Below are positions 15,394 to 64,000 of a stretch of DNA of 64,000 nucleotides, one piece after another (within the stretch, counting starts at the first letter, position 1; each line of letters opens with the position of its first letter). Source of the DNA: a virus. Under the pieces are notes generated by a model. That model worked only from the letters and a program-made list of their open reading frames with translations, did not search any database and was not told the origin of the DNA. The stretch lies in IMG/VR virus record IMGVR_UViG_3300028854_000012, positions 1 to 64,000 of that record; one strand, given 5' to 3'. Made by a program: the position numbers and the translations under genes.

Positions 15394-17826
15394 ATGAGCA
15401 CAAATAGTTATATCAGAGCGACTGGAGATATTGATTATAATTTTAATTATAATGATTTCACTGTGGAATTTTTTGTTAAACCAGTTCCAGTTAGCCCTCT
15501 AACATCATTTTCAAATATAACAACCACTGCAAATATTACAGCTATTGATAATATATGTCCAATGACAGCAGGAGATACAACTGTTGGTAGTATTGATGGA
15601 TATGGACCACTACCTATTATTAGTCTTCCAATTATTGGAGATGAGTTGGTTGTTAGTGCATTTCCTAGTCCAGAGGAAAGTTATGTTTATACTGGATTAA
15701 TTAGTAATAATTTTGGTTGGGCTTATGCAAATGTATCTTGGGAAGGAACCCCTCCTGCTGGAAATGCCAATGGAATTGGAATTCCAATTATTGTGCCATC
15801 CGTTAGTTCATCTGTCAATATTGATTTTACCGCTAATCCGTATGGCAATGGAGGTGGTTCAAATTCAATTTTAAATTATATAGCTGGAACTAATTTAACC
15901 GCAACTATTACATGCAACGAAGCATCTGTTGGTGGACCTGATTCTGGTGTTGGAGAAGTAACTTCAATATTATTAACGAATATTCCCGGAACATTATTAG
16001 TTGTTAACGGATATAACACAACAGACTATGACATATATTCCACAGGCGATGCTTCATTAAATCCAGATAATGTAGTTCATACAAATGTAACTTGGGATGG
16101 TATTCCTCCAGCCGGAAATTCCAATGGCTTAGGTGTTCCTATCATTGTTCCAAATATTCCTGCAACAGTCACTATTGCTTTTAACTTAACATATGGCGGC
16201 GGATTATTTAATGAAGGGGTTGTTCAAATTGTATTTTCTGGAACTGGTGGTCCAGTTATTTTTGGAAATGGCTCATGTCGTGTTGATTTTATTTCTACTG
16301 GAAATATTATTCCAATAATACAACCAACACAAACATTGTTTGAAATTTCAAACAATGAATCTCCTGCTGCAAACTTATATACTAGCACCAGATTTTTAAC
16401 GGTTATAGAAAATGGAAATTTAAATTCATATGCAATTCAAATAATATCCCCATTTGTTGTTGGTGGTAATAGCAATGTATTTACTAGTCCAATTCCAATT
16501 TCAAATAATGATAAAATATTTTATAATGGCGAATTATTAAATGATTTACAATTATCTATATCTGGTAGTTCTATTTCATTATCCAATGTAAATATAAACA
16601 CATCTAACACAATAGTTGAAATAGGACAAGTATTATTTCAAGTTTTGGGTGAAGCTATAACTGAAAACACTCAACATTTTATTAGTGCGGAAAGAAGCCA
16701 AAATCAATTTTATTTGTTCTTAGATGGACAATTACAAAGTGCTCCAGTTCCAGCATTCAACGCAATTCCATCACAAGTTCTTACTAATACAATAAGCAAT
16801 TCAAATATACAACGCTATGACAGTCCTGCATTACTTACTATTGGGGCCAATAAAGATGGAAAAGACCCATTTTATGGTCAGTTTGGTGATTTTAAAATTA
16901 TCAATGGGACAGCGATACATATTCCAGAAACAGAAATTACCAATACCATATATAGTTCTTTCAATGACGCAAATTTAGGTTGTGGCATAGCCGATATCAT
17001 TGTTGAAGATGATAATTTTGTTGATAGTATTACTAATAATTTTCCAGAAGAATATATACCCGGACAAATATTTGATACTTTATACATTCAAGTATATCAA
17101 AGTAATACATCTAATGCCAATGCAAATATTCTTAGTTTTTCTTTATTTAAACCAACTATTATGGTTGGTCCAACTGGATATTATACATTTACTATGCCAA
17201 CGAGTAACTCAAAAATTAATTTACCATGGTCTTTTTTAGACGCCGCTGCTGCAAGCATATTAGTGAATGGTGTTGCAATCCCTTCGACATCATGGGCAAT
17301 TGATACTGGTGTTTTAAGTATTGTTGCTGCTCCGGGAAGCAATGTTCAAATATTTGCTACTGGACCAACTACATATTATGATGTTAATTCAAATTCGGTT
17401 TCTATTATTACTAGTAATCTATATGCCAATAGTTCAACAATTAATGTTGCCAACACCACACCTTTTATTACTCCAATTATTGGTAGCACCGCTAACATAT
17501 CAAATAATGCATTATTAAATGTTCGTGGACAAATTTTTATAAACCAAGAATGTATTACATATCTATATATTGATAGAATTGGAAATACTTTATCTGGATT
17601 AACTAGAGGAACATCTGGAACAGGTGTCCCAGAAATTCATAATATTGGTTCAAGAATAATAAGTTCTTCATATACAAATGATATTCAAAATTTAGCATTT
17701 GTTGATCCACGAACTGCTAGTTGGTATACATATCCATTAGCTAATACTAGTTTACAAAACACCAATTCAACAATTTCATCAGTGTTAGTAAACTTAGGTG
17801 GTTTACCACCAGTAACACCATTTTAG
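15394..17826 (+). CDS. Virion structural protein, LamG-like domain interrupted by the duplicated module
   Basis: DFTVEFF…HFISAER…FYGQFGDFKI; C-terminal 'GQIFINQECITY…LTRGTSGT…H' repeat seen in baseplate/tail proteins. Confidence 0.75.
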   Translation: MSTNSYIRATGDIDYNFNYNDFTVEFFVKPVPVSPLTSFSNITTTANITAIDNICPMTAGDTTVGSIDGYGPLPIISLPIIGDELVVSAFPSPEESYVYTGLISNNFGWAYANVSWEGTPPAGNANGIGIPIIVPSVSSSVNIDFTANPYGNGGGSNSILNYIAGTNLTATITCNEASVGGPDSGVGEVTSILLTNIPGTLLVVNGYNTTDYDIYSTGDASLNPDNVVHTNVTWDGIPPAGNSNGLGVPIIVPNIPATVTIAFNLTYGGGLFNEGVVQIVFSGTGGPVIFGNGSCRVDFISTGNIIPIIQPTQTLFEISNNESPAANLYTSTRFLTVIENGNLNSYAIQIISPFVVGGNSNVFTSPIPISNNDKIFYNGELLNDLQLSISGSSISLSNVNINTSNTIVEIGQVLFQVLGEAITENTQHFISAERSQNQFYLFLDGQLQSAPVPAFNAIPSQVLTNTISNSNIQRYDSPALLTIGANKDGKDPFYGQFGDFKIINGTAIHIPETEITNTIYSSFNDANLGCGIADIIVEDDNFVDSITNNFPEEYIPGQIFDTLYIQVYQSNTSNANANILSFSLFKPTIMVGPTGYYTFTMPTSNSKINLPWSFLDAAAASILVNGVAIPSTSWAIDTGVLSIVAAPGSNVQIFATGPTTYYDVNSNSVSIITSNLYANSSTINVANTTPFITPIIGSTANISNNALLNVRGQIFINQECITYLYIDRIGNTLSGLTRGTSGTGVPEIHNIGSRIISSSYTNDIQNLAFVDPRTASWYTYPLANTSLQNTNSTISSVLVNLGGLPPVTPF
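15523..16299 (+). repeat. Second copy of the ~260-codon module
   Basis: Aligns by eye with 6052-6840. Confidence 0.9.
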
Positions 17827-17841
17827 AAGATAAATAATATT

Positions 17842-17964
17842 ATGAAAGACTTAACAAGTGTTAAAATAAATGAACATCTAAAAATAGTAGTTAGTGAAAA
17901 AACATCGGTTAATAATATTGCAATAACGAATATAAAAACAGTTGTTTGTCAGAGGATGAAATAA
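17842..17964 (+). CDS. 40-aa leaderless late protein (MKDLTSVKINEHLKIVVSEK…VVCQRMK)
   Basis: TAAATA-N5-ATG; stop overlaps next start (TAATG); resembles the N-terminal strands of the next protein. Confidence 0.6.
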   Translation: MKDLTSVKINEHLKIVVSEKTSVNNIAITNIKTVVCQRMK

Positions 17965-18575
17965 TGAATCAACAAGACTCAAATGTTAGATTTGATATTA
18001 AAGGATACGTAAAAATAACCGATGCTATAACAAAAGAAGTTTTGTTTGATGGCGAAAATGGAATCCATTTTGAAAATTTTTCTGTAGCCTTAGCACAAAG
18101 TTTAGGAGGTGGACCTCTTGATCCATCAAATCCCGGTTTCATCTATACTATGAATTTTGGTAATGGAGGAACTACGGTTAATGCTAGTGGAATTGTAACA
18201 TACAATCCCCCAAACACAGTTGGTGCCACTGCCCAACTATATAATCAAACATATAGTAAAGTAGTTAACAATCAATTTTCAGCAGACATTGATCCTATTA
18301 ATAACAAAATTACATATAGTCATACTCCCGGAAAAGCATACACAGATGTTGTTATTGTTTGTAGATTAGATTATGGTGAACCCGCTGATCAATTAAGTTA
18401 TGATAACTCTAATGATATTAATACCCAATATGCTTTTGATGAACTCGGTTTATTTAGTTATAATGGTCAACTTCTTACACATGTGATATATTCTCCTATT
18501 ATTAAGAGTCTTAATCGACTTATAGATATTGGATATACTTTAAGAATTAGCACATTATCATCATTGTCAATTTAA
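17964..18575 (+). CDS. Baseplate/tail structural protein
   Basis: 'FDELGL…LLTHVIYSPIIKSLNRLIDIGYTLRI' C-terminus; ATG at 17964 with GAGGA RBS preferred over TTG 17946. Confidence 0.75.
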   Translation: MNQQDSNVRFDIKGYVKITDAITKEVLFDGENGIHFENFSVALAQSLGGGPLDPSNPGFIYTMNFGNGGTTVNASGIVTYNPPNTVGATAQLYNQTYSKVVNNQFSADIDPINNKITYSHTPGKAYTDVVIVCRLDYGEPADQLSYDNSNDINTQYAFDELGLFSYNGQLLTHVIYSPIIKSLNRLIDIGYTLRISTLSSLSI

Positions 18576-31563: not shown

Positions 31564-31711
31564 AGTCTATTAAATTAAGCTCTCTTTTCCTGATATAGAC
31601 CGTGGTGAACATTGCCTTTAGGGAGCGGTATGTTAAAAGAAAGTCAGGTGCAGTATAGCCGAGGATTATATTATAATCTTAAAAACTGCCTCGGTAATTA
31701 TAAATAGTAGT

Positions 31712-41574: not shown

Positions 41575-42417
41575 ATGAGGCTGAACGAGTTGGCAAGAAA
41601 AAAGAAAATTGTTACTCCATATGATCCTGTTGAAGCCGCGCGTGAAAGCCTTGAATGGTATAAAGAAGATGGTATTAAAAGATGTCCAAATAATACATTA
41701 CAACTTTTTGTTCCTCGAAAAATAGAACGATATGCAACAAAGAAAGAACGCGAAGAACATATTTTACGAGATAGAGCCAAATATGCATATGACGATAATG
41801 GTGATATGATTCCTCAATATAGAGATTGGGTCAATAATGTCCACGAATCTATAATAGATGAAGGTGCTCCGGTGCTTGCTGGTGGAAATCCATTAATTGG
41901 TGGAAGCAAACCTTTAAGTGCGTTATTATGGACAAGCACAGCTAAAAAATTAGATAATGGTAAGTGGACAAGTGACTGGAATAATTTTATCCAAGGTGGA
42001 AATCTCGGTAGTTCCATACCATCAAAAATTGGATACTTATATAAAGTTCTGCCAAATACATTAGTATATGAATTAGATAGTGCTCAAGATGCATTAATTA
42101 TATATAAAATTTTTAAAGATTTGGGAAGACCTAATAAAGCATTAGATGATCCAAATAATTGGGAACGAACAAGTGAATTTTATAGGAATAGTAATGATAC
42201 AGATATAAGTATTATACAAAAAGATTTTCCGTGGCCAGATTTGTCAGCTAATTTCGATTGTATACATCATTGGGGTGGTAGAAATAGTTTTAATTATGAT
42301 TCTTTTACTGGTGGATACGATGTGGAAAGTTCGTGTTTTTTCAAACCAAATCAACTTGAATTGCTTGGACAAGTTCCACTATGGACGCCCGAAGATGATA
42401 AAGAAGATGATTTTTAA
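41575..42417 (+). CDS. Hypothetical protein (MRLNEL…; C-terminal KP…LWTS…YDVES domain, possibly ART-fold)
   Basis: ATG 41575; internal VHESIIDE linker. Confidence 0.6.
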   Translation: MRLNELARKKKIVTPYDPVEAARESLEWYKEDGIKRCPNNTLQLFVPRKIERYATKKEREEHILRDRAKYAYDDNGDMIPQYRDWVNNVHESIIDEGAPVLAGGNPLIGGSKPLSALLWTSTAKKLDNGKWTSDWNNFIQGGNLGSSIPSKIGYLYKVLPNTLVYELDSAQDALIIYKIFKDLGRPNKALDDPNNWERTSEFYRNSNDTDISIIQKDFPWPDLSANFDCIHHWGGRNSFNYDSFTGGYDVESSCFFKPNQLELLGQVPLWTPEDDKEDDF

Positions 42418-43193
42418 ATTTTATGTCTAATCACTCCTTGAATATAACCTAAATCTTTAAAAGATGAAAATTCTACTGGATTAATAACCTTGCAAATTCC
42501 TAATGATACGTTTTTAATATATATTTTTCCAGTGTTAGTGTGTGCTTGTTTCTTATTTGATTCTTCTTTTCTTATTCTTCCTTGAATAAATCCTTGAATT
42601 TCATATATAGGCCAGTCATTTAATTTTATAAATTTTGCTGTTTTTAAAAGCGCATGATAAATATGAATTCTATTTTTACTTGATTCTGAAACCTTTTCTT
42701 TAGTGGAAAGCGATGATTTTTTCTTACCTAAAGAAAATCCCAAATTTATATAATATTGTAATTCTGATAGTTTAATTGGAAATTGAACTACTCCATTATT
42801 AATCCATTTTCTACCAATTTTTGATTTAGATTTTCTGGAACGAGTTATTGCGCTATTTGGAAATGGACCAAGGGGAACACTTTCGTGTTGATTATACCAC
42901 ATTGGATTATTGGCGGCTTTGATTTTTGTAAGAAATTTAGATTCATATAATAAACATTGTTTGGAATTTGTAAAAATTTTTCTAACTTCTACAATAAAAG
43001 AATCTTTGCCTTCTATTTTAATAATATTCTTTACAATTTTACTGGATGAAAAATATTTAGTCCATAAATCAGAAGGTAGACAGCCTATTCTTGTTTTGCT
43101 TCCAGCATATCTTTTTCCATCTGAAATATGTGTTAAAATATAAAAGAACGGTGTTCGATCTGTTGCGGTGAATAATTCTGAATAAATAGGCAT
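42414..43193 (-). CDS. GIY-YIG-type homing endonuclease with NUMOD-like repeats
   Basis: FFYIL…RYAGSK…Y.SSS…E…YN; repeated 'G..WI.NG…GF..G'. Confidence 0.75.
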   Translation of the reverse strand: MPIYSELFTATDRTPFFYILTHISDGKRYAGSKTRIGCLPSDLWTKYFSSSKIVKNIIKIEGKDSFIVEVRKIFTNSKQCLLYESKFLTKIKAANNPMWYNQHESVPLGPFPNSAITRSRKSKSKIGRKWINNGVVQFPIKLSELQYYINLGFSLGKKKSSLSTKEKVSESSKNRIHIYHALLKTAKFIKLNDWPIYEIQGFIQGRIRKEESNKKQAHTNTGKIYIKNVSLGICKVINPVEFSSFKDLGYIQGVIRHKI

Positions 43194-43257
43194 ATGCTGT
43201 TGCTCCTTAAAAGCGATAGAATTGGTGGGACAGTGAATCCGCGACCAATAGTATTTA
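43183..43257. promoter_or_regulatory. Conserved two-hairpin cassette between opposing TAAATA promoters (copy 1); probable antisense RNA on + strand
   Basis: Covaries with copy 2 at 57594-57670. Confidence 0.65.
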
Positions 43258-43371
43258 TCTTTTTGAAATAAAAATTATGTTGTTGAAAATAATGAACTTA
43301 TTTTTAGTTGACAACAGGACAAAACTTTGATATACTAATATTGTAGTTGAGAAAAAGAAAGGAATACTAAA

Positions 43372-43716
43372 ATGTTCACTCCATTGACCCCGCGCCAAAA
43401 GACCTTGCTTGTGAATAATGTCTTGTCTGCATGTAAGGACATTAGAACGCTAAAGAAAAATGGTTACCATTTTTTATATTTGTCAAGTGGAATGATAGCC
43501 CATTATAATCGTGGAGGATTCATTGATTATTATATGGATAATGATCTTGCCACTGATATTATCAATAATGCGCAAATGAATCAGTGGAATAATTTTAGGT
43601 TCGGTGATCGGGATTATGATTATATGATGGAAAAAAAGGATATTTATAATCGTATTCTCGCTGGTCTTGGTATAGTTGATTTGGGAGAACATATTCCAAA
43701 TAAGTTTTGGTTTTAA
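43372..43716 (+). CDS. Early hypothetical protein
   Basis: TTGACA-N17-TATACT at 43308-43336, AAGGA RBS. Confidence 0.7.
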   Translation: MFTPLTPRQKTLLVNNVLSACKDIRTLKKNGYHFLYLSSGMIAHYNRGGFIDYYMDNDLATDIINNAQMNQWNNFRFGDRDYDYMMEKKDIYNRILAGLGIVDLGEHIPNKFWF

Positions 43717-43719
43717 CAT

Positions 43720-43983
43720 AATTTCAATTGGGAGGTCGGCTTAAAGGTAGCCATCCTTTAAAGAGTGAGTCGTGATACAGGGATTGCGGAAGTTATATCG
43801 GAATGATATGCAAGGGCAATCTTGGGTGCAGTTGTTTAGACCGATTGCCAAGATTAACTGCATTACAACCAAACACTATTGGCACGTGGATAATAGTTGA
43901 TACGTTTTTTGCTACGCAAACTATTGTTGGTCTGATAAGGCAAGATATGGACTCTTTGGTGTAGAAACACACCAATTGAAATT
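43720..43983 (+). ncRNA. Structured RNA resembling 23S rRNA helices 42-44 (uL11-binding GTPase-associated centre) with ~190-nt insert
   Basis: 12-bp terminal stem; GGAGGTCGGCTTAAAGGTAGCCATCCTTTAAAGA…GGTGTAGAAACACAC matches the 23S 1055-1104 pattern with compensatory changes. Confidence 0.75.
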
Positions 43984-43987
43984 TTAT

Positions 43988-44236
43988 CAATCTTAGAAAA
44001 GAAAATACAAATGAATTTTATGTAAATTAATCCTTGACAAACAACAAATTATATAGTATCATAATAATGTGATGATAATCAAATCACATATGTAACAAGA
44101 AAATATAGGGATGGAATGTCCCGAATTTACGCTTGTGGAGATACCACTACTGGGCAACGTTGATAAAAAATCAATCTTGTAGGCATGTGTCGATGAAACA
44201 AGAAGCCATAATTGCTTTAGCAATTGGGTGATTCAC
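43988..44236 (+). mobile_element. tnpB-less IS200/IS605 miniature element / orphan omega-RNA locus
   Basis: Left-end motif AGAAAAGAAAATAC..ATGAATTTT and right-end scaffold ending GGGTGATTCAC shared with 60639-61964. Confidence 0.8.
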
Positions 44237-44276
44237 AAAGGAATAAAGAATGTTGGTAGTTTGTAATGTTAAAAGT

Positions 44277-44414
44277 TTGTGTGGGCAGCGTGGATGAACA
44301 CGTTTTGGGTCTTAAAGGTTTAACTCTTTTGAGGTAAGACTCGCCATAAATACGGAAGGAACGCCGTTGAGGAGTAACGATAAAATTGTTGGTATCCAAT
44401 CCAACTCCACACAA
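44277..44414 (+). ncRNA. tRNA-like RNA with expanded central region
   Basis: TTGTGTGG/CCACACAA terminal stem, D-like arm CGTG-GATGAA-CACG, T-like arm GTTGG-TATCCAAT-CCAAC. Confidence 0.55.
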
Positions 44415-44441
44415 TTTATATAGATACCATATATTAGAAAA

Positions 44442-44480
44442 GGCCACTCTTACTACTGGTTTAACCAGAGCGGAGTGGCC
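44442..44480 (+). terminator. GC-rich hairpin (terminator or processing signal)
   Basis: GGCCACTC…GAGTGGCC followed by an AT-rich tail. Confidence 0.45.
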
Positions 44481-44546
44481 ATATTATTTTATGCTTGACA
44501 TTTGAAAATGATTACTATATCATCGTAAATGAGGAGAAATATAACA

Positions 44547-44804
44547 ATGGCAATAACTACATTAGGACCAAATGAAATTAATAAATTACAAGATATTATT
44601 TTTGATGGTGTGCGCAATCTTGAAGAGTGCGAGGCACTACAAACCGGTATGGCAGATACAATTAAAAGTGTGGCAGAGGAATTGCAAATTCCAGCAAGTC
44701 TATTAAAAAAGGCAATAAAAACGGCATTCAAAGGTAATTATGCTGAATTAGAAGCTGAGTTAAATGACCTTGATGCTTTGCTTCAAGCTGCGGGTAAAAA
44801 GTAA
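44547..44804 (+). CDS. Small dsDNA-binding protein, T4 DsbA-like (putative)
   Basis: GAGGAG RBS; helical 'D.IK.VAEEL.IP…LKKAIK.A.K' pattern. Confidence 0.55.
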   Translation: MAITTLGPNEINKLQDIIFDGVRNLEECEALQTGMADTIKSVAEELQIPASLLKKAIKTAFKGNYAELEAELNDLDALLQAAGKK

Positions 44805-44817
44805 ATAAATTAAAAAT

Positions 44818-44892
44818 GCGGGGTTAGCTCAATGGTCGAGCGCCAGAAACCAATTCTGGAGGTTGCTATTTCGATATTAGCACCCCGCTCCA
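44818..44892 (+). tRNA. Atypical tRNA: Gly-type acceptor arm, CCA (Trp) anticodon
   Basis: GCGGGGT/ACCCCGC-T-CCA; D arm GCTC-AATGGTC-GAGC; CCAGA-AACCAAT-TCTGG; TTCGA loop lacking G53-C61. Confidence 0.65.
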
Positions 44893-44901
44893 ATAACAAG
44901 T

Positions 44902-44978
44902 TTATGTGAATGACTAAAGCAGGAAAAATATGCCTTCCGCCGTAAAATCGGGCTGGAATTAACCAGAAGTTCACATAA
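44902..44978 (+). ncRNA. Small multibranch RNA candidate
   Basis: TTATGTGAA/TTCACATAA closing stem with three short internal hairpins. Confidence 0.45.
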
Positions 44979-44994
44979 TTTAAATTATAATAGT

Positions 44995-45134
44995 TTGTGC
45001 AGAGTGTGTTTTGAACGGATAACAAGTTGGACTCCATGCGCGTATACATTGGTAAAGACGCTGATAGGGCCAACCGGCTGTTGCGAACGGGGGATAACCA
45101 AGAAGACCCTAAAGTCTGTGACTGCTCTGCACAA
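44995..45134 (+). ncRNA. GC-rich structured RNA candidate
   Basis: TTGTGCAGAG/CTCTGCACAA closing stem; internal GTTGG/CCAAC, GCGT/ACGC, AGAC/GTCT. Confidence 0.5.
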
Positions 45135-45163
45135 TTTATATATTAAAGTAAAACAGGAATATA

Positions 45164-47818
45164 ATGAGTTATATTAGTGCAAAAATAAATAAAAAATCAG
45201 AACGTATAGAAGTTGTAGAAAGAATAAATGACAAACGCATTTATAACAGCTATCCAATTGACTATTCATTTTATGTAGATGATCCAAATGGTCAATATAA
45301 AACAATATATAATACTCCTGTAACAAAAATTACACCAAGATCATCATCGGAATTTCATAAAGAGTTAGCAAGACTTGGTAATAAAAAAGTTTGGGAAAGT
45401 GATTTAAATCTGGTTTATAAATGTCTTTCTCAAAATTATCGTCACAAAAATGCTCCAGAATTACATATTACCTTGTTTGATATAGAAGTGGATTTTGATT
45501 CTGTGCGCGGTTATGCTCCAATTGATGATCCGTTTGCTGCTATTACCGCAGTAACAATGCAACACCAATGGAATAAAGAATTAATTACTTTAGCTCTTAA
45601 ACCCAAAACATATACTATAGAAAAAGCAAATGAAATTGCTGCAAAATTTGAAAATACGATAATTTTTGAAAATGAAGTTGATATGCTTTCTGCCATTCTT
45701 GATTTATTAGAAGATACTGATATTATTAGTGGATGGAATAGTTCTGGTTTTGATATTCCTTATCTTATCAATCGAATCACAAGAATTATGAGTAAAGATG
45801 ATACAAGTAGACTATGCCTATGGAATGAAAAACCAAAAGAAAAAACAGTAGAAAAATATGGAAAAGAAATTTCCACTTATGAACTAGTAGGTAGAGTTCA
45901 TTTGGATTTAATGGAAGTTTATATTAAGTTCACTTATGAAGAACGCCACAGCTATAGTTTAAATGCTATTGCAGAACATGAGTTGGGTCAAAGTAAAACA
46001 CCATATACCGGTAGTCTTGATAAATTATATAATGAAGATTTTGAAAAGTTTATTGAATATAACAGGCAAGATGTTATACTTTTATCTCTTCTTGAAGATA
46101 AATTGAAGTTTATTGATTTATTAAATGGAATGGCCCATGATACAACAACTCTTCTTTCAACATGCATGGGAACAGTTGCAGTTATTGACCAAGCTATAGT
46201 CAATAGAATTCATGATAGGGGTCAGATTGCTCCAAATAGAAAAAATAATTCATATGAAGGTAATGAGTCTGTCGCAGGAGCATATGTTGCAACGCCAAAA
46301 AGCGGAGCACATGAATGGGTTGGAGTAATTGATATTAATTCACTATACCCAAGCACTATTAGAGCATTGAATATGGGATTGGAAACAATTGTTGGGCAAA
46401 TTAGACCTACCCTAACAGATGATTATATTTCAGAACAATTCAAAAAGCAAAATATGACATTTGCTCATGCTTGGGAAAATCAATTTGGGTCTCATGAGTA
46501 TCAAGCGGTTATGGCTCGTAAACAAGGTATTGATTTAATTATTGATTGGGAAGAAACAGGAAAAAATGATACAGTTACAGCAGATCAATGTTATGATTTA
46601 ATTTTTAATAGTGGGCAACCTTGGATGCTTAGTGGTAACGGAACAATTTTTACATATGCACATAACGCTATTATTCCGGGATTATTACTGGATTGGTATA
46701 CAGATCGTAAAGAATTTCAAAAGAAACAACGAGAAGCCACAGATTTAAAAATTGAGTCTTTTTTTAATCGCCGTCAGCATATAGAAAAAATAAAACTTAA
46801 TAGTTTATATGGTGCATTATTAAGTCCAGCTTCTCGTTTCTTTGATAAAAGATTAGGACAAAGCGTAACTTTATCGGGTCGTATTATTTGCAAACATATT
46901 AATTCTTTTGCGAATGAATGTATTACTGGAGAATATAATATCGAAGGCGCAGCAATTTGTGCTGCTGATACTGATAGCACCCAATTTAGTGCATGGACAA
47001 CAATTAAACCAATGGTTGATCGTAAAGAATTGGAATGGAATAAAGAGGCAGCGGTTCAATTATATACTGCTATTGGAGAAAAAGTTAACGAGTCTTTTCC
47101 AACTCTTATGGAAAAAATGTTTAATTGTCCACAAGAATTTGGATCGCTTATTAAGGCAAGTTGTGAAAGTGTTGGTTATCGCGGATTATATATTACTAAA
47201 AAAAGATATGCAATTTTAAATTATTGGAAAGATGGTAAGTATTTAAAAGAGTCAAAATTAAAAGCAATGGGATTGGACCTTAGACGCAGTGATACACCAG
47301 TAGTATGTCAGAAATTTTTAAAAACTATTCTTATGGAATTTTTAACAACTGGCTCAGAGCAAAATATTATCAAAATGATAAATGATTTTAAAATTAAATT
47401 TAAAGCATTACCGCCATCCGACAGAGGAACACCAAAACGAGTAAATAATTTAACTAATTATATGGACCTTATTCAAAAAGGAAAAGGTAATAGAGTTCCG
47501 GGGCATGTTCGTGCCGCTATAAATTGGAATATACTTCGTGAAATAAATAATGATAAGATTCATACTAAAATTGTTGATGGAATGAAATGTGTCGTTTGTC
47601 CATTAAAGAATAATATTAATCAAATGACAAGTATTGCATATCCAACAGATGAAATAAGTTTACCTAATTGGTTCACTGTATTACCCTTTGATGAAGAATC
47701 AATGATTAAAAGCGTAGTAGAAAAAAAGATTGAGAATCTTTTTGGTAAATTACCAAATTGGAAAACAATAGAAAATGCAACTAAGAAAATTAATACTTAT
47801 GAAGATTTTTTTGAATAG
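45164..47818 (+). CDS. Family B DNA polymerase
   Basis: Exo DIEVD, GWNS..FD, YN..D; pol DINSLYPS, K..LNSLYG, DTDS, KKRY. Confidence 0.95.
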   Translation: MSYISAKINKKSERIEVVERINDKRIYNSYPIDYSFYVDDPNGQYKTIYNTPVTKITPRSSSEFHKELARLGNKKVWESDLNLVYKCLSQNYRHKNAPELHITLFDIEVDFDSVRGYAPIDDPFAAITAVTMQHQWNKELITLALKPKTYTIEKANEIAAKFENTIIFENEVDMLSAILDLLEDTDIISGWNSSGFDIPYLINRITRIMSKDDTSRLCLWNEKPKEKTVEKYGKEISTYELVGRVHLDLMEVYIKFTYEERHSYSLNAIAEHELGQSKTPYTGSLDKLYNEDFEKFIEYNRQDVILLSLLEDKLKFIDLLNGMAHDTTTLLSTCMGTVAVIDQAIVNRIHDRGQIAPNRKNNSYEGNESVAGAYVATPKSGAHEWVGVIDINSLYPSTIRALNMGLETIVGQIRPTLTDDYISEQFKKQNMTFAHAWENQFGSHEYQAVMARKQGIDLIIDWEETGKNDTVTADQCYDLIFNSGQPWMLSGNGTIFTYAHNAIIPGLLLDWYTDRKEFQKKQREATDLKIESFFNRRQHIEKIKLNSLYGALLSPASRFFDKRLGQSVTLSGRIICKHINSFANECITGEYNIEGAAICAADTDSTQFSAWTTIKPMVDRKELEWNKEAAVQLYTAIGEKVNESFPTLMEKMFNCPQEFGSLIKASCESVGYRGLYITKKRYAILNYWKDGKYLKESKLKAMGLDLRRSDTPVVCQKFLKTILMEFLTTGSEQNIIKMINDFKIKFKALPPSDRGTPKRVNNLTNYMDLIQKGKGNRVPGHVRAAINWNILREINNDKIHTKIVDGMKCVVCPLKNNINQMTSIAYPTDEISLPNWFTVLPFDEESMIKSVVEKKIENLFGKLPNWKTIENATKKINTYEDFFE

Positions 47819-59598: not shown

Positions 59599-60609
59599 TT
59601 AACTCATGAGTGTTTTTGTTTCAGGTAGAAAATTACTTCCCATAAAAGTTAATTCAGTTGTCCATTTTTCTGGAGCACCGGCGTTTATTTCTGCTTCTGT
59701 GCTGATTTGTTCCGATGACATAAATACATATTTTTTACGCTGCATATCAATATGATCTCTAATTGAATTAAAATATGCGATATCAATTTGATGAATGGTT
59801 TGTTTTATTTGCAAAGAATCTTGTAGGTTTTCCGATGATAAATTTAATATTGTATTACCGGATGAATCAATGATTGATAATTTTTTAATACTGGAACATA
59901 ACAAGTCAATAGCACTAATAGTTAAAGAATTCATATTATTTGAAAAAGCGCCTTCATCTTTAATGTTTTCATCTTGATCAAAATTTTTTGTTAGTGATTT
60001 ACGAAGCATAAAAATGTTTTTAGATGTATCAAATAGGTTTTTCATTGGGATTGGTTGAACTAAAAGAGATAAAACTTGACCCGTTTCATCCTCAATATTT
60101 ATTTCTTCATCCCAATGATCTGTTCTGTTGGCAATATCACGAAGAAGATCATTTGCATCTATTTGTATAGTTCGAGTGAGCGTTGTTTTTGGAACACTGA
60201 CAACAAAATCAAAATTTGATCCATAGCTTGCAACACGTATAGCCAATAAAATTGCATCAATATCAATATTAGGAATTTGATCTGGTTGTTGAATATTTGG
60301 AATACAACTTTGAATAACCTCATATATATTTTTTCCGGTCATTGTTGCATCACCGGTTCTAAATTTCATGTCATCGGACGCATTCATTGCAAATACTGGA
60401 AGTTGCCCAGATATATTAAAAGTCAAGCTATTTTTTGGATACCAATTTCCATGACTTGGAAGAGTTAAAGAAAGTTTATTTTTTCTGAAAAAAGCCGCCA
60501 ATGGATTAGTTTGGGGTTCAGGTTCCATTTTTTGTTGTAATGTCTTTAGAGGTCCAGTTGGAATAGTGGAGGAACCCACAACTGGGAATTGTTGCGAACG
60601 TTTTGTCAT
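59599..60609 (-). CDS. Baseplate hub protein (T4 gp26-like), paralog lacking the Zn-finger cysteines
   Basis: NPL..FFR…LPS.G..Y…M.A.D…IQSCIP…DIDAILLAIRVASYG. Confidence 0.75.
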   Translation of the reverse strand: MTKRSQQFPVVGSSTIPTGPLKTLQQKMEPEPQTNPLAAFFRKNKLSLTLPSHGNWYPKNSLTFNISGQLPVFAMNASDDMKFRTGDATMTGKNIYEVIQSCIPNIQQPDQIPNIDIDAILLAIRVASYGSNFDFVVSVPKTTLTRTIQIDANDLLRDIANRTDHWDEEINIEDETGQVLSLLVQPIPMKNLFDTSKNIFMLRKSLTKNFDQDENIKDEGAFSNNMNSLTISAIDLLCSSIKKLSIIDSSGNTILNLSSENLQDSLQIKQTIHQIDIAYFNSIRDHIDMQRKKYVFMSSEQISTEAEINAGAPEKWTTELTFMGSNFLPETKTLMS

Positions 60610-60638
60610 TTTATTGATTTACTCCTGTTGATATTTAT

Positions 60639-61964
60639 CTTTTCAGAAAAGAAAATACGGATGAATTTTCTGTTCCCAAACCAAAATAAACATTTGGCAT
60701 TTATATAAAAACAAAATAAAATGTATAAATAGATATATGCACAAAGCATTTAAATATCGGGTATATCCAACCAAAGAACAAGATAAAATCTTGAACGAAT
60801 GGCAAGGACAACTGCGATTTATTTGGAATCAATTTCTTGATGGAAATATTAAGAGATATGAATTAGAAAAGAAATTCAATTTTAAATTTGAAATGGCAAA
60901 TGCTTTACCGATATTAAAACAAGAACACAAATGGATTTCTGCTCCAAGTCAAAGTTTACAACAAATCGCTCTACAAATGGATGGAGCACTTAGAAATTGT
61001 TACAAGCGAAAACTTGGTTTCCAAAATTCAAAAAGAAAAACGGAAGGCAACAAGGAATTAAAATACCTCAACAATATGATCAAATAAAAACAGGTTCTAA
61101 ATTTATCAAAATACCCAAATTAGGTGAAGTGAAATGGATTAGACACAGAGAACTACAAGGAAAACTTAAATCAGTTACAATAACCAAAGACGTAGATCAA
61201 TGGTATGTTTCGTGTCTCTGCGATATAGATTTTGTTCCATCGCCCAAAGAAGTAAAATCCATTGAAAATGATATAACAGGAATTGATTTGGGTATTACTA
61301 ACTTCATAGTTGACAGCAACGGAGTTGTTGTGGACTCACCAAAATATCTCAAGAAGTCAGAGAAGAAATTAAAAAGATATGCAAGGCAATACTCTAATAA
61401 AAAGAAAGGAAGTAATAATCAAAACAAAGCACGAATAGTATTAGCAAAACAACATAGAAAAGTAAGGTTTCAAAGAAAGGATTTTCTCCACAAATTGAGT
61501 TCTCAGATAGCCAATGAGAATGTGATTGTTATATGTGAAGACCTAGCAGTTAAAAATATGAGTAAAAATAGATGCTTGTCAAAAGCAATAAGTGATCAGG
61601 GATGGAGTCAGTTCATTACATATTTGACCTATAAACTGGATTGGTGCGGAGGGGAACTAATTAAAATACCGAGATTTGCTCCTTCAAGTCAGATATGTTC
61701 GTCTTGTGGCAATAAACAGAAAATGGATTTGTCTCTGAGAACTTATCTCTGTCCTTCTTGTAATTTGGTCATAGATAGAGATTACAATGCATCTCTTAAT
61801 ATAAAAGCATTTGGTCTTAAAATTTTAAATGAAACAAATAGGGCAGGAATTGCCCGAATATACGCTTGTGGAGATACCTCCAATGGGATATTTGGTATAC
61901 CGAATATTAGTTGTGTCTCGATGAAACAAGAAGCCAAAGTTGCTTTAGCAACTGGGTGATTCAC
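60639..61964 (+). mobile_element. IS200/IS605-family (IS1341-type, tnpB-only) element
   Basis: TTTAT just 5', shared left-end motif, tnpB, right end …GATTCAC; left boundary approximate. Confidence 0.8.
60737..61959 (+). pseudogene. tnpB: TnpB RNA-guided nuclease with a -1 frameshift at ~61020
   Basis: HTH 'AFKYRVYPT', GIDLG, ICEDL, CSSC/CPSC, DRDYNASLNI; …KLGF|PKFKKK split across frames. Confidence 0.85.
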
Positions 61965-61984
61965 CATTGAAAAATTGGATAAAT
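61841..61984 (+). ncRNA. TnpB omega/reRNA scaffold plus flanking guide
   Basis: Overlaps tnpB 3' end; hairpins GGGCA-GGAAT-TGCCC and AGTTGC-TTTA-GCAACT; conserved with 44108-44236. Confidence 0.7.
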
Positions 61985-62001
61985 AAAGTAAAGGTGAAAG
62001 A

Positions 62002-64000
62002 ATGGCTTCTACTGTTAAAATAAAAACACATGGTAATACTACTTTGGAAGGTTTGGAATTAGAAAATTTCAGTACCGAAGAAACCCTTGTTGCTATTTTA
62101 GACCAGATAAAAACACTTTCTACTGGTGTTTTTACTAAAGAAGATGATACAAAAAAGAAAACAGAAAAACACCAATCCAAACTAGAAAAATGGTTTCAAC
62201 AATTAACTGGAGGTGCAGTTGGAGGCGTTGTTGGTGGTGAAGTTGCTGCCGGGAGCAACGAGGCGATTGGAGCAGTTTCTAATATAATTACACCATTATT
62301 GAATTCAATTATTCCATTTGGTGATTTATTAATTGATTTTGCAGAGTTAACACCAGAAATTTTATTAGTAGTTGTTGCTTTCAAAGCAGTTACAGCAGTG
62401 TTGCATATATTTCAAAGTGGATTAAATTTGGTTTCTCGATCCATAACTTCTATTTTTACTGTAGCTGGAAATTTTATAGGAACTATTTTATCTGGTAAAA
62501 CAGCTATGAGCGACTATTTTGCTGCATTGCAAAGAGGAACAGATACTATTCCAATTATTGGAACTTTGACAAAATTTTTATCTGAAGGAATTAATATTAT
62601 TGACTCTTGGAATCAATCCTTAATTGAACTAACAAAAAATGGAGCAAATTTTGGTGGTAATATTACAGATTTAGTAAATGGTGCAGCCGACGCTGGATTA
62701 ACAGTTGAAGAATTTTCTCGTGTTATTAAAGAAAATGTAGATAGTTTATCTACATTTGGTTCTGTGATGAATGGTGTGAATACTTACACAAAAGTTTCCA
62801 AAATAGGAATGGCTGACTTTTCTGGGCAATTAGCCGATATGGGAATTTCATTTTCACAATATAGTGAAGAGCTTCCAAAGATTTTAAATTTGTTTGGTGC
62901 TTCTGCAAAGGCGCACGGTGCAAGTGATAGAGACCTTGCACAAAGTTCCATTAATTTAATTGCTCAATTTGATACTATGAGTCAATTAACTGGAAAAACT
63001 CGTGAACAACAAGAAGCTGACTTGGCAAAACTAACAGACGATGCTGCGTGGCAACAAAAATTAACACATATGACACAATCAGAAGCAGCTAATTATACAC
63101 AAGCACTAAGTGAAATTCAAAGCACTACTGGTAATGCGTATGCAGAATTATATAAATTAAGTGTTTTAGGTATTCCTCCATTAACAAAAGAATTACAAAA
63201 TATTTTATCTACTACGCCGGGATTGAGAACTGAATTTGAACGCATGACTGCGGCTGTTAAAGCAGGAGGACCACAATTAGGAGAAAAATTAGATACTGTG
63301 GCCTCGCATATGGTTGCTATTGGATTAAAAGCTGGGCAATCTTATGAAACTTTAATTGCAGCATCAACAGCCGGGATGTCTGGAGCAGCTACAGATATAG
63401 CAGCAGTTCAGAAAGATTTATTAGCAAATAGACTATCCTTTTATAAAAATGGTGTTTTTCAAGAAGAAGAATATAAAAAACAAATAACAGCACAACGTAT
63501 ACATCTCGAAAATGTTAATAAACTATCTAGTGGATTATTGGAATTCAGTAATATCATGATGGTTTTGCGAGACAATATAACTACTAATGTGATTGTTCCA
63601 TTAGTTAGTAAAATTGGACCACTTATTAATATGATTACTACAGAATTAGGTGGAAGTACTGGTCCATTAAATAATCTTGTTTCAATGATATCTAATATGG
63701 TTGATCAATTTGGTGGTTGGCTAAAAAAAGAAATTGCAAGCGGAAATTTTAAAATTGGTATAGATAGATTTATTAAAGTGATTGTGGGCGCGATTACTAT
63801 TATGGTTGATTTAATTCCAATGGTTGGAAGTATGATTGCATGGGTAGTAGAAAATTGGGATTCAATAAAATCAATATCTGTAGCGATTATGCAACAAGTT
63901 ATATATCCTATATTAGTTTTGGTTTTAGCTCTTACTGGTGTTATAATATTAGCTTTGTGGCCATTAATAATGTTTGGACAAGCACTGATCAGTGCAGTTA
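62002..64000 (+). CDS. Tape-measure-like tail protein, 5' part (runs off the window)
   Basis: TAAATA + AAGGTG RBS; MASTVKIK…ELENFSTEETL; long helical Ala/Gly/Leu-rich frame next to hub genes. Confidence 0.7.
   Translation, partial: MASTVKIKTHGNTTLEGLELENFSTEETLVAILDQIKTLSTGVFTKEDDTKKKTEKHQSKLEKWFQQLTGGAVGGVVGGEVAAGSNEAIGAVSNIITPLLNSIIPFGDLLIDFAELTPEILLVVVAFKAVTAVLHIFQSGLNLVSRSITSIFTVAGNFIGTILSGKTAMSDYFAALQRGTDTIPIIGTLTKFLSEGINIIDSWNQSLIELTKNGANFGGNITDLVNGAADAGLTVEEFSRVIKENVDSLSTFGSVMNGVNTYTKVSKIGMADFSGQLADMGISFSQYSEELPKILNLFGASAKAHGASDRDLAQSSINLIAQFDTMSQLTGKTREQQEADLAKLTDDAAWQQKLTHMTQSEAANYTQALSEIQSTTGNAYAELYKLSVLGIPPLTKELQNILSTTPGLRTEFERMTAAVKAGGPQLGEKLDTVASHMVAIGLKAGQSYETLIAASTAGMSGAATDIAAVQKDLLANRLSFYKNGVFQEEEYKKQITAQRIHLENVNKLSSGLLEFSNIMMVLRDNITTNVIVPLVSKIGPLINMITTELGGSTGPLNNLVSMISNMVDQFGGWLKKEIASGNFKIGIDRFIKVIVGAITIMVDLIPMVGSMIAWVVENWDSIKSISVAIMQQVIYPILVLVLALTGVIILALWPLIMFGQALISAV

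What the first reader, a model, noticed from the sequence alone, without database searches (positions are those of the whole stretch)
43988..44260. Orphan TnpB omega-RNA with its own early promoter and a different guide
Seen: 44108-44236 copies the tnpB right-end scaffold at 61841-61964 (TACGCTTGTGGAGATACC…TCGATGAAACAAGAAGCCA…TTGCTTTAGCAA.TGGGTGATTCAC) with compensatory stems (GGGAT/GTCCC vs GGGCA/TGCCC; AATTGC/GCAATT vs AGTTGC/GCAACT). The left-end motif and an upstream TTTAT are also shared. In place of tnpB is a TTGACA-N17-TATCAT promoter (44034-44062). Guides differ: AAAGGAATAAAGAATGTTGG vs CATTGAAAAATTGGATAAAT. Known: TnpB uses a right-end RNA whose guide is the flanking DNA. Inference: one nuclease with several trans-encoded guides, used for homing against empty alleles of co-infecting relatives or domesticated as a phage RNA-guided system.
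Basis: partly seen in the sequence, partly recalled or inferred. Interest (0 to 1): 0.7.

Follow-up and report, generated by a model that had tools for sequence, protein, structure and literature searches.

The report
Gene-less TnpB guide-RNA mini-element in phage
A 249-base, protein-less leftover of a jumping gene in a large peat phage still carries the guide-RNA part of that gene's RNA-guided nuclease behind its own promoter and turns up in environmental RNA libraries; it is a clean example of an element type already described, not a new kind.

Summary
Window 43988-44236 is a 249-bp protein-less copy of the IS200/IS605-family tnpB element at 60639-61964. It has the same TTTAT before the left end, a similar left end, and a right-end omegaRNA scaffold 78% identical (E 1.3e-23). 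The family fold is kept through compensatory changes. TTGACA-17-TATCAT sits at 44034-44062. A covariance model finds only these two scaffolds in the whole 90-kb record.

New here: contigs of 3 of 3 metatranscriptome runs laid hold scaffold plus guide, and one runs on well into the next small RNA.

Limits:
- The tnpB gene has a 1-nt deletion, giving 116-aa and 320-aa ORFs. Near-identical intact 407-aa alleles exist in other contigs.
- No TnpA was found in the 90 kb.
- No empty site or other target was found.

Best reading: a PATE-like, omegaRNA-encoding mini-IS, a kind described by Meers et al. 2023 (passages read). It could program TnpB in trans against the uninterrupted site. Loading and cleavage are untested.

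This scan noted similar orphans before on other DNA: 45 notes in at least 38 genomes.

Side result: three neighbouring small RNAs give circular-junction contigs in the RNA runs laid, not in the one DNA run laid.

The parts
43983..43987 (+). TTTAT, the inferred transposon-adjacent motif (TAM) directly 5' of the mini-element. It also lies at the 3' end of the upstream 276-nt RNA.
   Evidence: The same TTTAT(C) precedes the left end in 3 of 3 copies read: the window orphan, the window tnpB element, and L008. Its role as TAM is inferred and was not assayed.
43988..44025 (+). Left end (LE) of the mini-element, homologous to the LE of the tnpB element at 60639-60672.
   Evidence: Alignment; motif scan (2 of 2 hits in the 90 kb). 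The LE hairpin CAGAAAA/TTTTCTG of the full copies is weakened here to TAGAAAA/TTTTATG. The DNA fold z-score is 0.13, against -1.34 and -2.05 for the full copies.
44034..44062 (+). Sigma70-like promoter: TTGACA, 17 bases, TATCAT.
   Evidence: 11 of 12 matches. The same hexamers occur at 44495-44523. It resembles the record's TTGACAAAC... promoter family.
44067..44089 (+). Palindrome ATGTGAT-N9-ATCACAT over the predicted transcription start.
   Evidence: Read. Its function is unknown (operator or 5' hairpin); not tested.
44103..44236 (+). omegaRNA scaffold (right end of the mini-element). It contains stem 1, the CUUGU/ACAAG long-range helix, a variable hairpin and a terminal hairpin, and ends in TTCAC.
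   Evidence: RNA-library contigs cover 44098-44305 (X15), 44119-44305 (X16) and 44113-44402 (X18).
44237..44275 (+). Guide region. The first ~20 nt, starting AAAGGAATAAAGAATGTTGG, are the would-be guide. The stretch ends where the next small RNA (ncA) begins.
   Evidence: The position directly after the right end follows the family rule (named knowledge; Karvelis 2021 seen as abstract listing only). Held in the same RNA contigs. The ncA 5' junction is at 44276 (tables 5c and 8).
44276..44418 (+). Downstream small RNA ncA, joined to the omegaRNA in a longer RNA contig. It gives circular-junction contigs.
   Evidence: X18 contig 44113-44402 bridges 44275/44276. X15 contig of 174 letters joins 44418 (+C) back to 44276. 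X16 has a contig of 170 letters over 44276-44415. Fold and closing stem.
44442..44480 (+). Terminator-like hairpin GGCCACTC...GAGTGGCC, followed by a T-rich run.
   Evidence: Read by eye. The terminator scan did not call it.
60634..60672 (+). TTTAT plus the left end of the full tnpB element.
60737..61959 (+). tnpB gene, broken by a 1-nt deletion in the T-run 61018-61020, giving ORFs of 116 aa and 320 aa.
   Evidence: ORFs and translations. Pfam HTH_OrfB_IS605, OrfB_IS605 and Cas12f1-like_TNB. PDB TnpB 8exa/8h1j, E 3e-49, with the GIDLG, CEDL and DRD motifs aligned. The intact relative has TTTT at this spot. Allele survey.
61836..61964 (+). omegaRNA scaffold and right end of the full element, lying inside the 3' end of tnpB.
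61965..61984 (+). Guide of the full element (CATTGAAAAATTGGATAAAT).
   Evidence: No second match within 1 mismatch in 16 anywhere in the DNA held.

Best explanation
Window 43988-44236 is a 249-bp, protein-less derivative of an IS200/IS605-family tnpB-only element. It is a PATE-like mini-IS sitting in the small-RNA cluster in front of the DNA polymerase gene of a T4-like, probably jumbo, peat phage.

Shown:
- It keeps the element's left end, though with a weakened hairpin.
- It keeps the whole right-end omegaRNA scaffold with the family fold.
- A sigma70-like promoter lies where tnpB would be.
- Scaffold plus guide are held in contigs of RNA libraries.

Inferred mechanism:
1. Host RNA polymerase starts near 44069.
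2. The transcript runs through scaffold and guide into the next small RNA (ncA), toward the hairpin at 44442-44480.
3. Cutting at the ncA 5' end (44276) leaves an omegaRNA with a guide tail of up to 39 nt. The 5' leader is trimmed to about 44098-44119.
4. If a working TnpB is present, the complex would cut DNA that reads TTTAT followed directly by the guide. That is the same locus without the insert, either after excision or in a co-infecting relative.
5. Recombinational repair from an insert-bearing genome then restores or spreads the insert together with the flanking RNA genes.

The resident tnpB is frameshifted, so the protein would have to come from an intact allele (these circulate), from the roughly 75% of the genome not in hand, or from frameshift suppression.

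My odds: about 0.9 that it is such a mini-element with an expressed omegaRNA, and about 0.4 that this RNA is actually used by TnpB.
For: - Homology of both ends to the resident element: (78%, E 1.3e-23), and (115.8 and 107.2 bits).
- Family fold kept: 7 of 16 predicted pairs have changes on both sides in 6 sequences.
- Coding constraint has gone while the RNA hairpin stays. In the tnpB frame the orphan reads ...YACGDTTTGQR then two stops, and the conserved VSMKQEA block is in another frame. The variable region still forms a clean hairpin.
- The same holds for a second orphan, L018:1379-1492. Its variable hairpin closes on a UUCG loop, and the 12.7 kb held has no tnpB.
- Promoter.
- RNA libraries: 3 of 3 metatranscriptome runs laid hold contigs over scaffold plus guide with 0 mismatches (X18 has one 1-nt gap). 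Circular-junction contigs from the same locus occur in RNA runs and not in DNA run X14, so these libraries do carry RNA of this locus.
- The partner protein family is right: Pfam domains and the RuvC motifs aligned to solved TnpB.
- A near-identical intact allele exists: P0123, 407 aa, N part 94 of 94 and C part 309 of 312 identical.
- TTTAT lies before the left end in 3 of 3 copies.
- The element family moves between phages. It is 88.6% identical over 1311 nt between G000 and G001, whose other blastn matches are short (39-318 nt) and mostly 66-85% identical.
Against: - The only tnpB in the 90 kb is frameshifted. The same 320-aa form occurs in two further contigs (P0125), so it is probably a real allele.
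- No Y1 TnpA in the 90 kb. Excision, which creates the canonical target, may not happen.
- The orphan's left-end hairpin is weakened, so it may be immobile.
- It is a single copy. No empty site and no relative of the locus was found.
- The compensatory differences could all date from before the loss of tnpB. They show descent from working omegaRNAs, not selection on the orphan.
- Contigs from RNA libraries give no strand, ends or level, and by the tool's own caveat do not prove transcription.
- The fold z-score of the orphan scaffold is only -1.49, with 17 of 200 shuffles as good.
- The promoter motif class is only about 1.8-fold enriched over simulation.
- No Rfam family matches.
Confidence: 0.55

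Rival explanations
1. It is a decaying relic whose promoter has been co-opted. A full element inserted here lost tnpB. What matters now is the promoter, which drives the downstream small RNA ncA, and the omegaRNA scaffold is merely a structured 5' leader removed during ncA maturation. TnpB plays no part.
For: - An RNA contig joins the scaffold to ncA (X18, 44113-44402). The X15 and X16 contigs stop 30 letters into ncA, where the circular junction branches.
- tnpB is broken.
- No TnpA.
- The left-end hairpin is weakened.
- The element is a single copy.
Against: - The scaffold shows no disruptive change in any helix, although coding constraint is gone.
- Orphans of the same scaffold family recur elsewhere with intact-looking hairpins: L018, and more degenerate in L037.
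- Scaffold contigs are separate assembly units with depth figures of the same order as ncA. The tool warns that such depths are a poor measure of level.
Confidence: 0.3
2. It is a domesticated phage RNA-guided system. The orphan guide directs a TnpB (cutting or merely binding) to a host or rival-phage site other than the empty allele, as a weapon or regulator.
For: - Its own host-type promoter differs from the TATAAATA-type start of tnpB.
- Precedent for exapted TnpB homologues: TldR, PMC10705468 (abstract start only).
Against: - Exact 20-nt guide scan: 0 hits in genome contigs.
- Exact 23-nt flank scan: 0 hits in metagenome contigs.
- In all DNA held, the best second sites have 2 mismatches in 16 and no TTTAT.
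- The guide is simply the local flank, as in any insertion.
- The RuvC motifs are intact, so nothing points to a binding-only protein.
Confidence: 0.05
3. It is a chance resemblance or an assembly artefact.
For: None found.
Against: - E 1.3e-23.
- Both ends are shared.
- The stretch 43300-45200 is held at 95-100% of sampled words in 14 DNA runs of 13 studies.
- A DNA contig of X14 spans 43848-45300 colinearly.
Confidence: 0.01

Closest known systems
PATE-like minimal IS200/IS605 elements that encode omegaRNAs (Geobacillus stearothermophilus; Meers et al. 2023, preprint PMC10055086, passages read)
   Same: - Protein-less.
- Left and right ends match those of full tnpB elements in the same genome.
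- Carries an omegaRNA that would need a TnpB encoded elsewhere.
   Different: - It sits in a phage, inside a small-RNA gene cluster.
- It is a single copy rather than a family.
- A consensus sigma70-like promoter lies inside it.
- The partner tnpB is frameshifted, and no TnpA is in the DNA in hand.
- The left-end hairpin is weakened.
ISDra2 TnpB-omegaRNA (PDB 8exa, 8bf8, 8h1j; Karvelis et al. 2021, PMC8612924, abstract start only)
   Same: - The protein aligns over residues 107-373 at E 3e-49, with the RuvC motifs in place.
- The RNA scaffold overlaps the 3' end of tnpB and the right end.
- The guide is the 3' flank.
- The TAM is the motif 5' of the left end.
   Different: - The inferred TAM is TTTAT. 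It was not assayed.
- The scaffold is about 130 nt and has no Rfam family.
- There is no tnpA partner here.
Free-standing homing endonucleases of T-even phages, such as SegB, which favours inheritance of the T4 tRNA region (as cited in the review PMC13565253, passages read)
   Same: - The predicted outcome is the same: a cut in the co-infecting genome that lacks the insert, repair from the carrier, and co-conversion of a flanking RNA-gene region.
- A SegE-like GIY-YIG gene lies 0.8 kb upstream at 42414-43193.
   Different: - Target recognition would be by RNA guide plus TAM, not by protein.
- Nuclease and specificity module are 17 kb apart.
- Nothing has been shown functionally.
'Transposon non-restorative homing' against coinfected phages or plasmids (Table 1 of the review PMC13565253)
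   Different: The review states it as a category. From the passages I read, I saw no phage example with a guide-only cassette.

Membership tests
PATE / non-autonomous protein-less IS200/IS605 element | Left and right ends homologous to those of a full element | tested here: met
PATE / non-autonomous protein-less IS200/IS605 element | No protein-coding gene between the ends | tested here: met
   The element is 249 bp. The only ORF is a 54-aa minus-strand TTG frame at 44059-44223. The tnpB-frame remnant has stops.
PATE / non-autonomous protein-less IS200/IS605 element | Subterminal hairpins at both ends (TnpA substrates) | tested here: inconclusive
   The right-end hairpin AATTGC-TTTA-GCAATT is good. 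The left-end stem carries a G-A mismatch and is not in the predicted fold, z 0.13.
PATE / non-autonomous protein-less IS200/IS605 element | Insertion directly 3' of a conserved short motif (TAM) | tested here: met
   TTTAT(C) precedes the left end in 3 of 3 copies. A target duplication was not looked for.
PATE / non-autonomous protein-less IS200/IS605 element | Evidence of mobility (several copies, or an empty site in relatives) | tested here: not met
   One copy in 90 kb. Flank scans returned 0 hits.
PATE / non-autonomous protein-less IS200/IS605 element | A Y1 TnpA available in trans | tested here: not met
   PF01797 gave 0 matches in the 90-kb record. The record is about 25% complete and the host is unknown.
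TnpB omegaRNA | Scaffold corresponds to the 3' end of tnpB plus the right end, with conserved secondary structure | tested here: met
   (7 of 16 pairs covary).
TnpB omegaRNA | RNA is made | tested here: inconclusive
   Contigs of 3 of 3 RNA libraries hold 44119-44305 or more. Strand, ends and level cannot be read from contigs.
TnpB omegaRNA | Bound by TnpB and directs TAM-dependent DNA cleavage | not testable with these tools
   Needs RIP-seq and cleavage or interference assays.
TnpB omegaRNA | Match to a curated RNA family | tested here: not met
   Rfam 15 gave no hit at gathering score over the window, nor at E<=5 over 43200-45300 and 60500-62100.
TnpB nuclease (the partner gene at 60737-61959) | HTH, OrfB_IS605 (RuvC) and zinc-ribbon TNB domains, with D/E/D motif residues | tested here: met
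   GIDLG, CEDL and DRD aligned to solved TnpB. The residue numbers D191/E278/D361 are recalled.
TnpB nuclease (the partner gene at 60737-61959) | Intact reading frame | tested here: not met
   TTT at 61018-61020, against TTTT in L008, gives two ORFs. The 320-aa form is in 3 contigs, and 8 of the 11 cluster members are intact 407-aa forms.

The most novel reading that the evidence does not exclude
The guide-only cassette is a working 'drive' module that the phage population shares. It is transcribed from a host-type promoter. Its 3' end is made by the same processing that releases the neighbouring circular small RNA. It is loaded by TnpB supplied from intact alleles in the same or co-infecting genomes. 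It then cuts relatives that have the uninterrupted junction between the 276-nt RNA and ncA. The whole small-RNA cluster would therefore be inherited preferentially, as an RNA-guided counterpart of T4 SegB at the tRNA region, with specificity and nuclease unlinked and complemented at population level.
Probability: 0.15. Interest if true: 0.6.

Novelty: new member of a known kind. Interest (0 to 1): 0.35.

Why it matters
Guide-only derivatives of TnpB elements test whether the RNA-guided 'retention/homing' function can be split from the nuclease gene and still persist. Phages, which recombine during co-infection, are where such homing would pay best.

This case adds two things to the known picture:
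- An orphan omegaRNA of an uncultured phage is held in environmental RNA libraries of three studies.
- In nature it coexists with both broken and intact alleles of its presumed nuclease.

It gives a concrete, cheap assay: intact-allele TnpB plus this RNA against TTTAT plus guide. It does not change the concept, which is in print, and similar phage orphans were noted many times in this scan.

Tried and rejected
**Relatives of the locus**
- The PolB protein scan of viral contigs gave 4 pattern matches and 0 relatives.
- A pattern from the upstream RNA gave 0 hits.
- blastn of 43700-44500 against phages gave no match.
- No empty-site comparison was therefore possible.

**Guide and flank scans**
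- 0 hits in metagenome contigs and 0 in genome contigs.

**Left-end pattern scan of viral contigs**
- The single hit, L012, is a chance match with no element behind it.

**A third scaffold at 79114 (GGGTGATTCA)**
- Rejected. Neither BLAST nor the model hit there.

**Parts of the stretch without RNA-contig cover**
- No listed RNA contig covers 43987-44097 (left end plus promoter), 43200-43341 or 44478-44548. DNA run X14 covers all 30 bins.
- The three RNA contigs' left ends (44098, 44113, 44119) lie within 21 nt of each other, with no loose end. That is at most a weak hint of a 5' end near the scaffold start.
- Depth figures are one per contig and I do not rank genes by them: scaffold contigs 17.1, 40.1 and 8.44; neighbouring mRNA-region contigs 4.6-7.3.

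**Homology of the orphan's interior to the tnpB promoter region**
- The interior (44026-44102) and the tnpB promoter region (60673-60736) align poorly. I make no claim beyond analogous position.

**Other checks that led nowhere**
- E. coli blastn of 43715-43990: no match.
- RNA ligase and RtcB families in the 90 kb: 0 matches. The T4 Rnl1 model rang in no control genome, so that answer is void.
- Host clue from the scaffold core in genome contigs: hits are scattered over a Campylobacter MAG, an archaeal MAG and a Micrarchaeales MAG. No host inference is possible.

**Literature**
- Searches listed no paper on an orphan omegaRNA in a phage. The library is partial and supplements are closed, so supplementary tables such as those of Meers et al. 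may bear on this.

Full report
**Setting.** The window is bases 1-64000 of a 90,058-bp IMG/VR virus record, which CheckV estimates as 25% complete. Its genes include a family-B DNA polymerase (45164-47818), a T4-type baseplate protein and a SegE-like GIY-YIG endonuclease. It is 32% G+C. The stretch 43300-45200 is held at 95-100% of sampled words in 14 peat-metagenome DNA runs of 13 studies, and at 27-51% in 6 metatranscriptome runs.

**The observation.**
- 44105-44235 matches 61838-61964 at 78% identity, E 1.3e-23.
- A TTTAT followed by a shared left-end motif precedes both copies.
- TTGACA-17-TATCAT lies at 44034-44062.
- The mini-element is thus 43988-44236 (249 bp) and the full element is 60639-61964 (1326 bp).

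**The full element.**
- Its gene carries HTH_OrfB_IS605, OrfB_IS605 and Cas12f1-like_TNB domains.
- It aligns to solved ISDra2 TnpB at E 3e-49, with the three RuvC motif residues in place.
- It is broken. The run TTT at 61018-61020 is TTTT in the 90%-identical intact gene of another viral contig (L008/G001). This splits the gene into 116-aa and 320-aa ORFs.
- In the 90%-identity protein cluster, the 320-aa form occurs in this record and in two further contigs. Eight of the 11 members are intact 407-aa forms. One of them (P0123) is identical in 94 of 94 N-terminal and 309 of 312 C-terminal residues. The deletion therefore looks like a real, recent allele rather than an assembly slip.
- There is no second tnpB and no Y1 transposase in the 90 kb.

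**Is the orphan scaffold a sound omegaRNA?** I collected family members by scanning public collections for two conserved cores.
- Viral contigs with the first core: 8 loci, of which 6 are tnpB 3' ends and 2 are chance matches.
- Metagenome contigs with the second core: 14 loci. Eight are tnpB 3' ends, one is an orphan (L018) and five are chance matches.
- Genome contigs: 7 loci, of which 3 hit the model. Two of those have tnpB and one (L037) has none in the 8 kb held.

A 6-sequence alignment gives a consensus with stem 1, an invariant CUUGU/ACAAG long-range helix and a GAUAC/GUGUC helix. It has 16 pairs, 7 with changes on both sides. Each sequence also has its own variable and terminal hairpins. 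The window orphan breaks none of these helices.

The compensatory differences from the resident copy could predate the loss of tnpB. One thing does speak for RNA-level constraint afterwards. The orphan no longer reads as the TnpB C-terminus, because of stops and a frame change inside the variable region, yet that region is still a clean hairpin. The L018 orphan likewise closes its variable hairpin on a UUCG loop.

A covariance model built from the alignment finds only the two known copies in the whole record and one in G001. Rfam has no matching family.

**Expression.** I laid contigs of three metatranscriptome runs (three studies) and one DNA run on 43200-45300.
- All three RNA runs hold a contig over scaffold and guide: 44098-44305, 44119-44305 and 44113-44402. 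These have no mismatches. The last lacks one T at 44216, in the loop of the terminal hairpin.
- The third contig bridges into the next small RNA (ncA). The first two stop exactly 30 letters into ncA, where the assembly graph branches at a circular junction.
- The DNA run spans 43848-45300 colinearly.
- Contigs give no strand, ends or level, and an RNA library can contain DNA. However, junction contigs from the same locus occur in RNA runs and not in the DNA run, so RNA of this locus is present.
- I read this as good but not conclusive evidence that the orphan omegaRNA is made and is part of a precursor shared with ncA. What the uncovered parts might mean is set out under Tried and rejected, as the tool requires.

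**Promoter.** The site scores 11 of 12. It has the same hexamers as the site before the next gene (44495-44523) and begins like the record's recurrent TTGACAAAC... promoters. Sites with at least 11 of 12 matches number 13 in the record, against 7.3 +/- 2.6 in simulations, so the motif by itself is modest evidence. By contrast, tnpB starts 5 bases after a TATAAATA, like several other genes here. That fits, but does not prove, different timing for the nuclease and the orphan RNA.

**Target.** The guide has no second match in any DNA held. The best hits have 2 mismatches in 16 and no TTTAT. Exact scans of metagenome and genome collections returned nothing. No relative of the locus could be fetched. 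The only target that can be named is the canonical one: the same locus without the insert.

**Comparison with what is known.**
- Meers et al. (preprint PMC10055086; passages read) describe PATE-like minimal IS200/IS605 elements. They state that PATEs often encode omegaRNAs that must be acted on in trans by TnpB from other elements.
- A 2026 review (PMC13565253; passages read) lists transposon homing against coinfected phages as a category. It recalls that T4 SegB favours inheritance of the tRNA region.
- The present element fits that kind.
- Its particulars are the phage setting, its position at the exact 3' end of a small RNA gene, the internal host-type promoter, the RNA-library support, and the coexistence of broken and intact nuclease alleles.
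- The element family is shared between two only distantly related phages at 88.6% identity, so it does move among phages.
- This scan has noted comparable phage orphans 45 times in at least 38 genomes. I did not test those notes.

**Verdict.** This is a new member of a known kind. I put about 0.9 on 'omegaRNA-encoding mini-IS that is expressed' and about 0.4 on actual use by TnpB. The main rival, at 0.3, is that only the promoter matters now and serves the downstream RNA.

Noticed in passing
window 43711-43986, 44276-44415/44418, 44994-45135: Three small RNAs next to the orphan give head-to-tail (circular or permuted) junction contigs in RNA runs. The DNA run X14 shows no such junction and spans 43848-45300 colinearly.
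- 43986 joins back to 43711: 276 nt, X16, contig length 306 = 276+30.
- 45135 joins back to 44994: 142 nt, in X15 and X18, contig length 172 = 142+30.
- 44418 (+C) joins back to 44276 in X15; X16 has a 170-letter contig over 44276-44415.

Each RNA is closed by a long terminal stem. ncA and ncB share the ends TTTGTG...CACAAT, with covarying stems. No RNA ligase or RtcB gene is in the 90 kb. I found no paper on this in one search.
   Followed up: partly
window 43731-43767: This 37-base part of the 276-nt RNA is matched at 90% or more by short, deep contigs of other organisms in all runs. Their loose ends look to me like large-subunit rRNA (my recollection; no database hit). blastn against E. coli genomes found nothing, and Rfam gave nothing at E<=5.
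   Followed up: partly
window 43983-43987, 44415-44419, 45135-45139: The 3' boundaries of all three junction-forming RNAs fall in A/T runs containing TTTAT, the motif that the IS uses as its insertion site. The mini-element sits exactly at one such boundary.
   Followed up: no
window 61018-61020; proteins P0123, P0125, P0127: The tnpB 1-nt deletion allele (320-aa ORF) is seen in three contigs. Near-identical intact 407-aa alleles circulate.
   Followed up: partly
window 60724-60739: tnpB starts 5 bases after TATAAATA, like the genes at 31699 and 32294. The intact relative L008 has TATAAATA 7 bases before its start codon. The IS gene seems fitted to the phage's own (T4-late-like) start signal. 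The count of TATAAATA is not above composition (17 seen, 17.4 expected per strand).
   Followed up: partly
window 44067-44089: A perfect 7-bp palindrome, ATGTGAT-N9-ATCACAT, lies over the predicted start of the orphan transcript. It could be an operator or a 5' hairpin.
   Followed up: no
L018:1379-1492 and L037:1294-1418 (minus strand): Two more tnpB-less scaffolds of the same family.
- L018 is in a 45-kb metagenome contig, in an intergenic spacer, with a UUCG-capped variable hairpin.
- L037 is a degenerate copy in a Campylobacter MAG contig.

Neither has tnpB in the DNA held.
   Followed up: partly
window 43308, 52846, 53207, 54800, 55239; G000 85644 (minus strand): A family of strong promoters shares the spacer TTGACAA(A/C)..AACCAAA.TTTG.TATACT (extended -10). 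Similar sequences occur in the distantly related phage G001.
   Followed up: no
G001 (IMG/VR contig of L008) 17086-18393 vs window 60659-61963: The tnpB element is 88.6% identical between two phages whose other blastn matches are short (39-318 nt) and mostly 66-85% identical. It sits at different sites in the two. This indicates horizontal movement of the IS among related phages.
   Followed up: partly
window 44216: One RNA-run contig (X18) lacks one T in the TTT loop of the orphan's terminal hairpin. This may be a strain variant or an error at depth 8.
   Followed up: no
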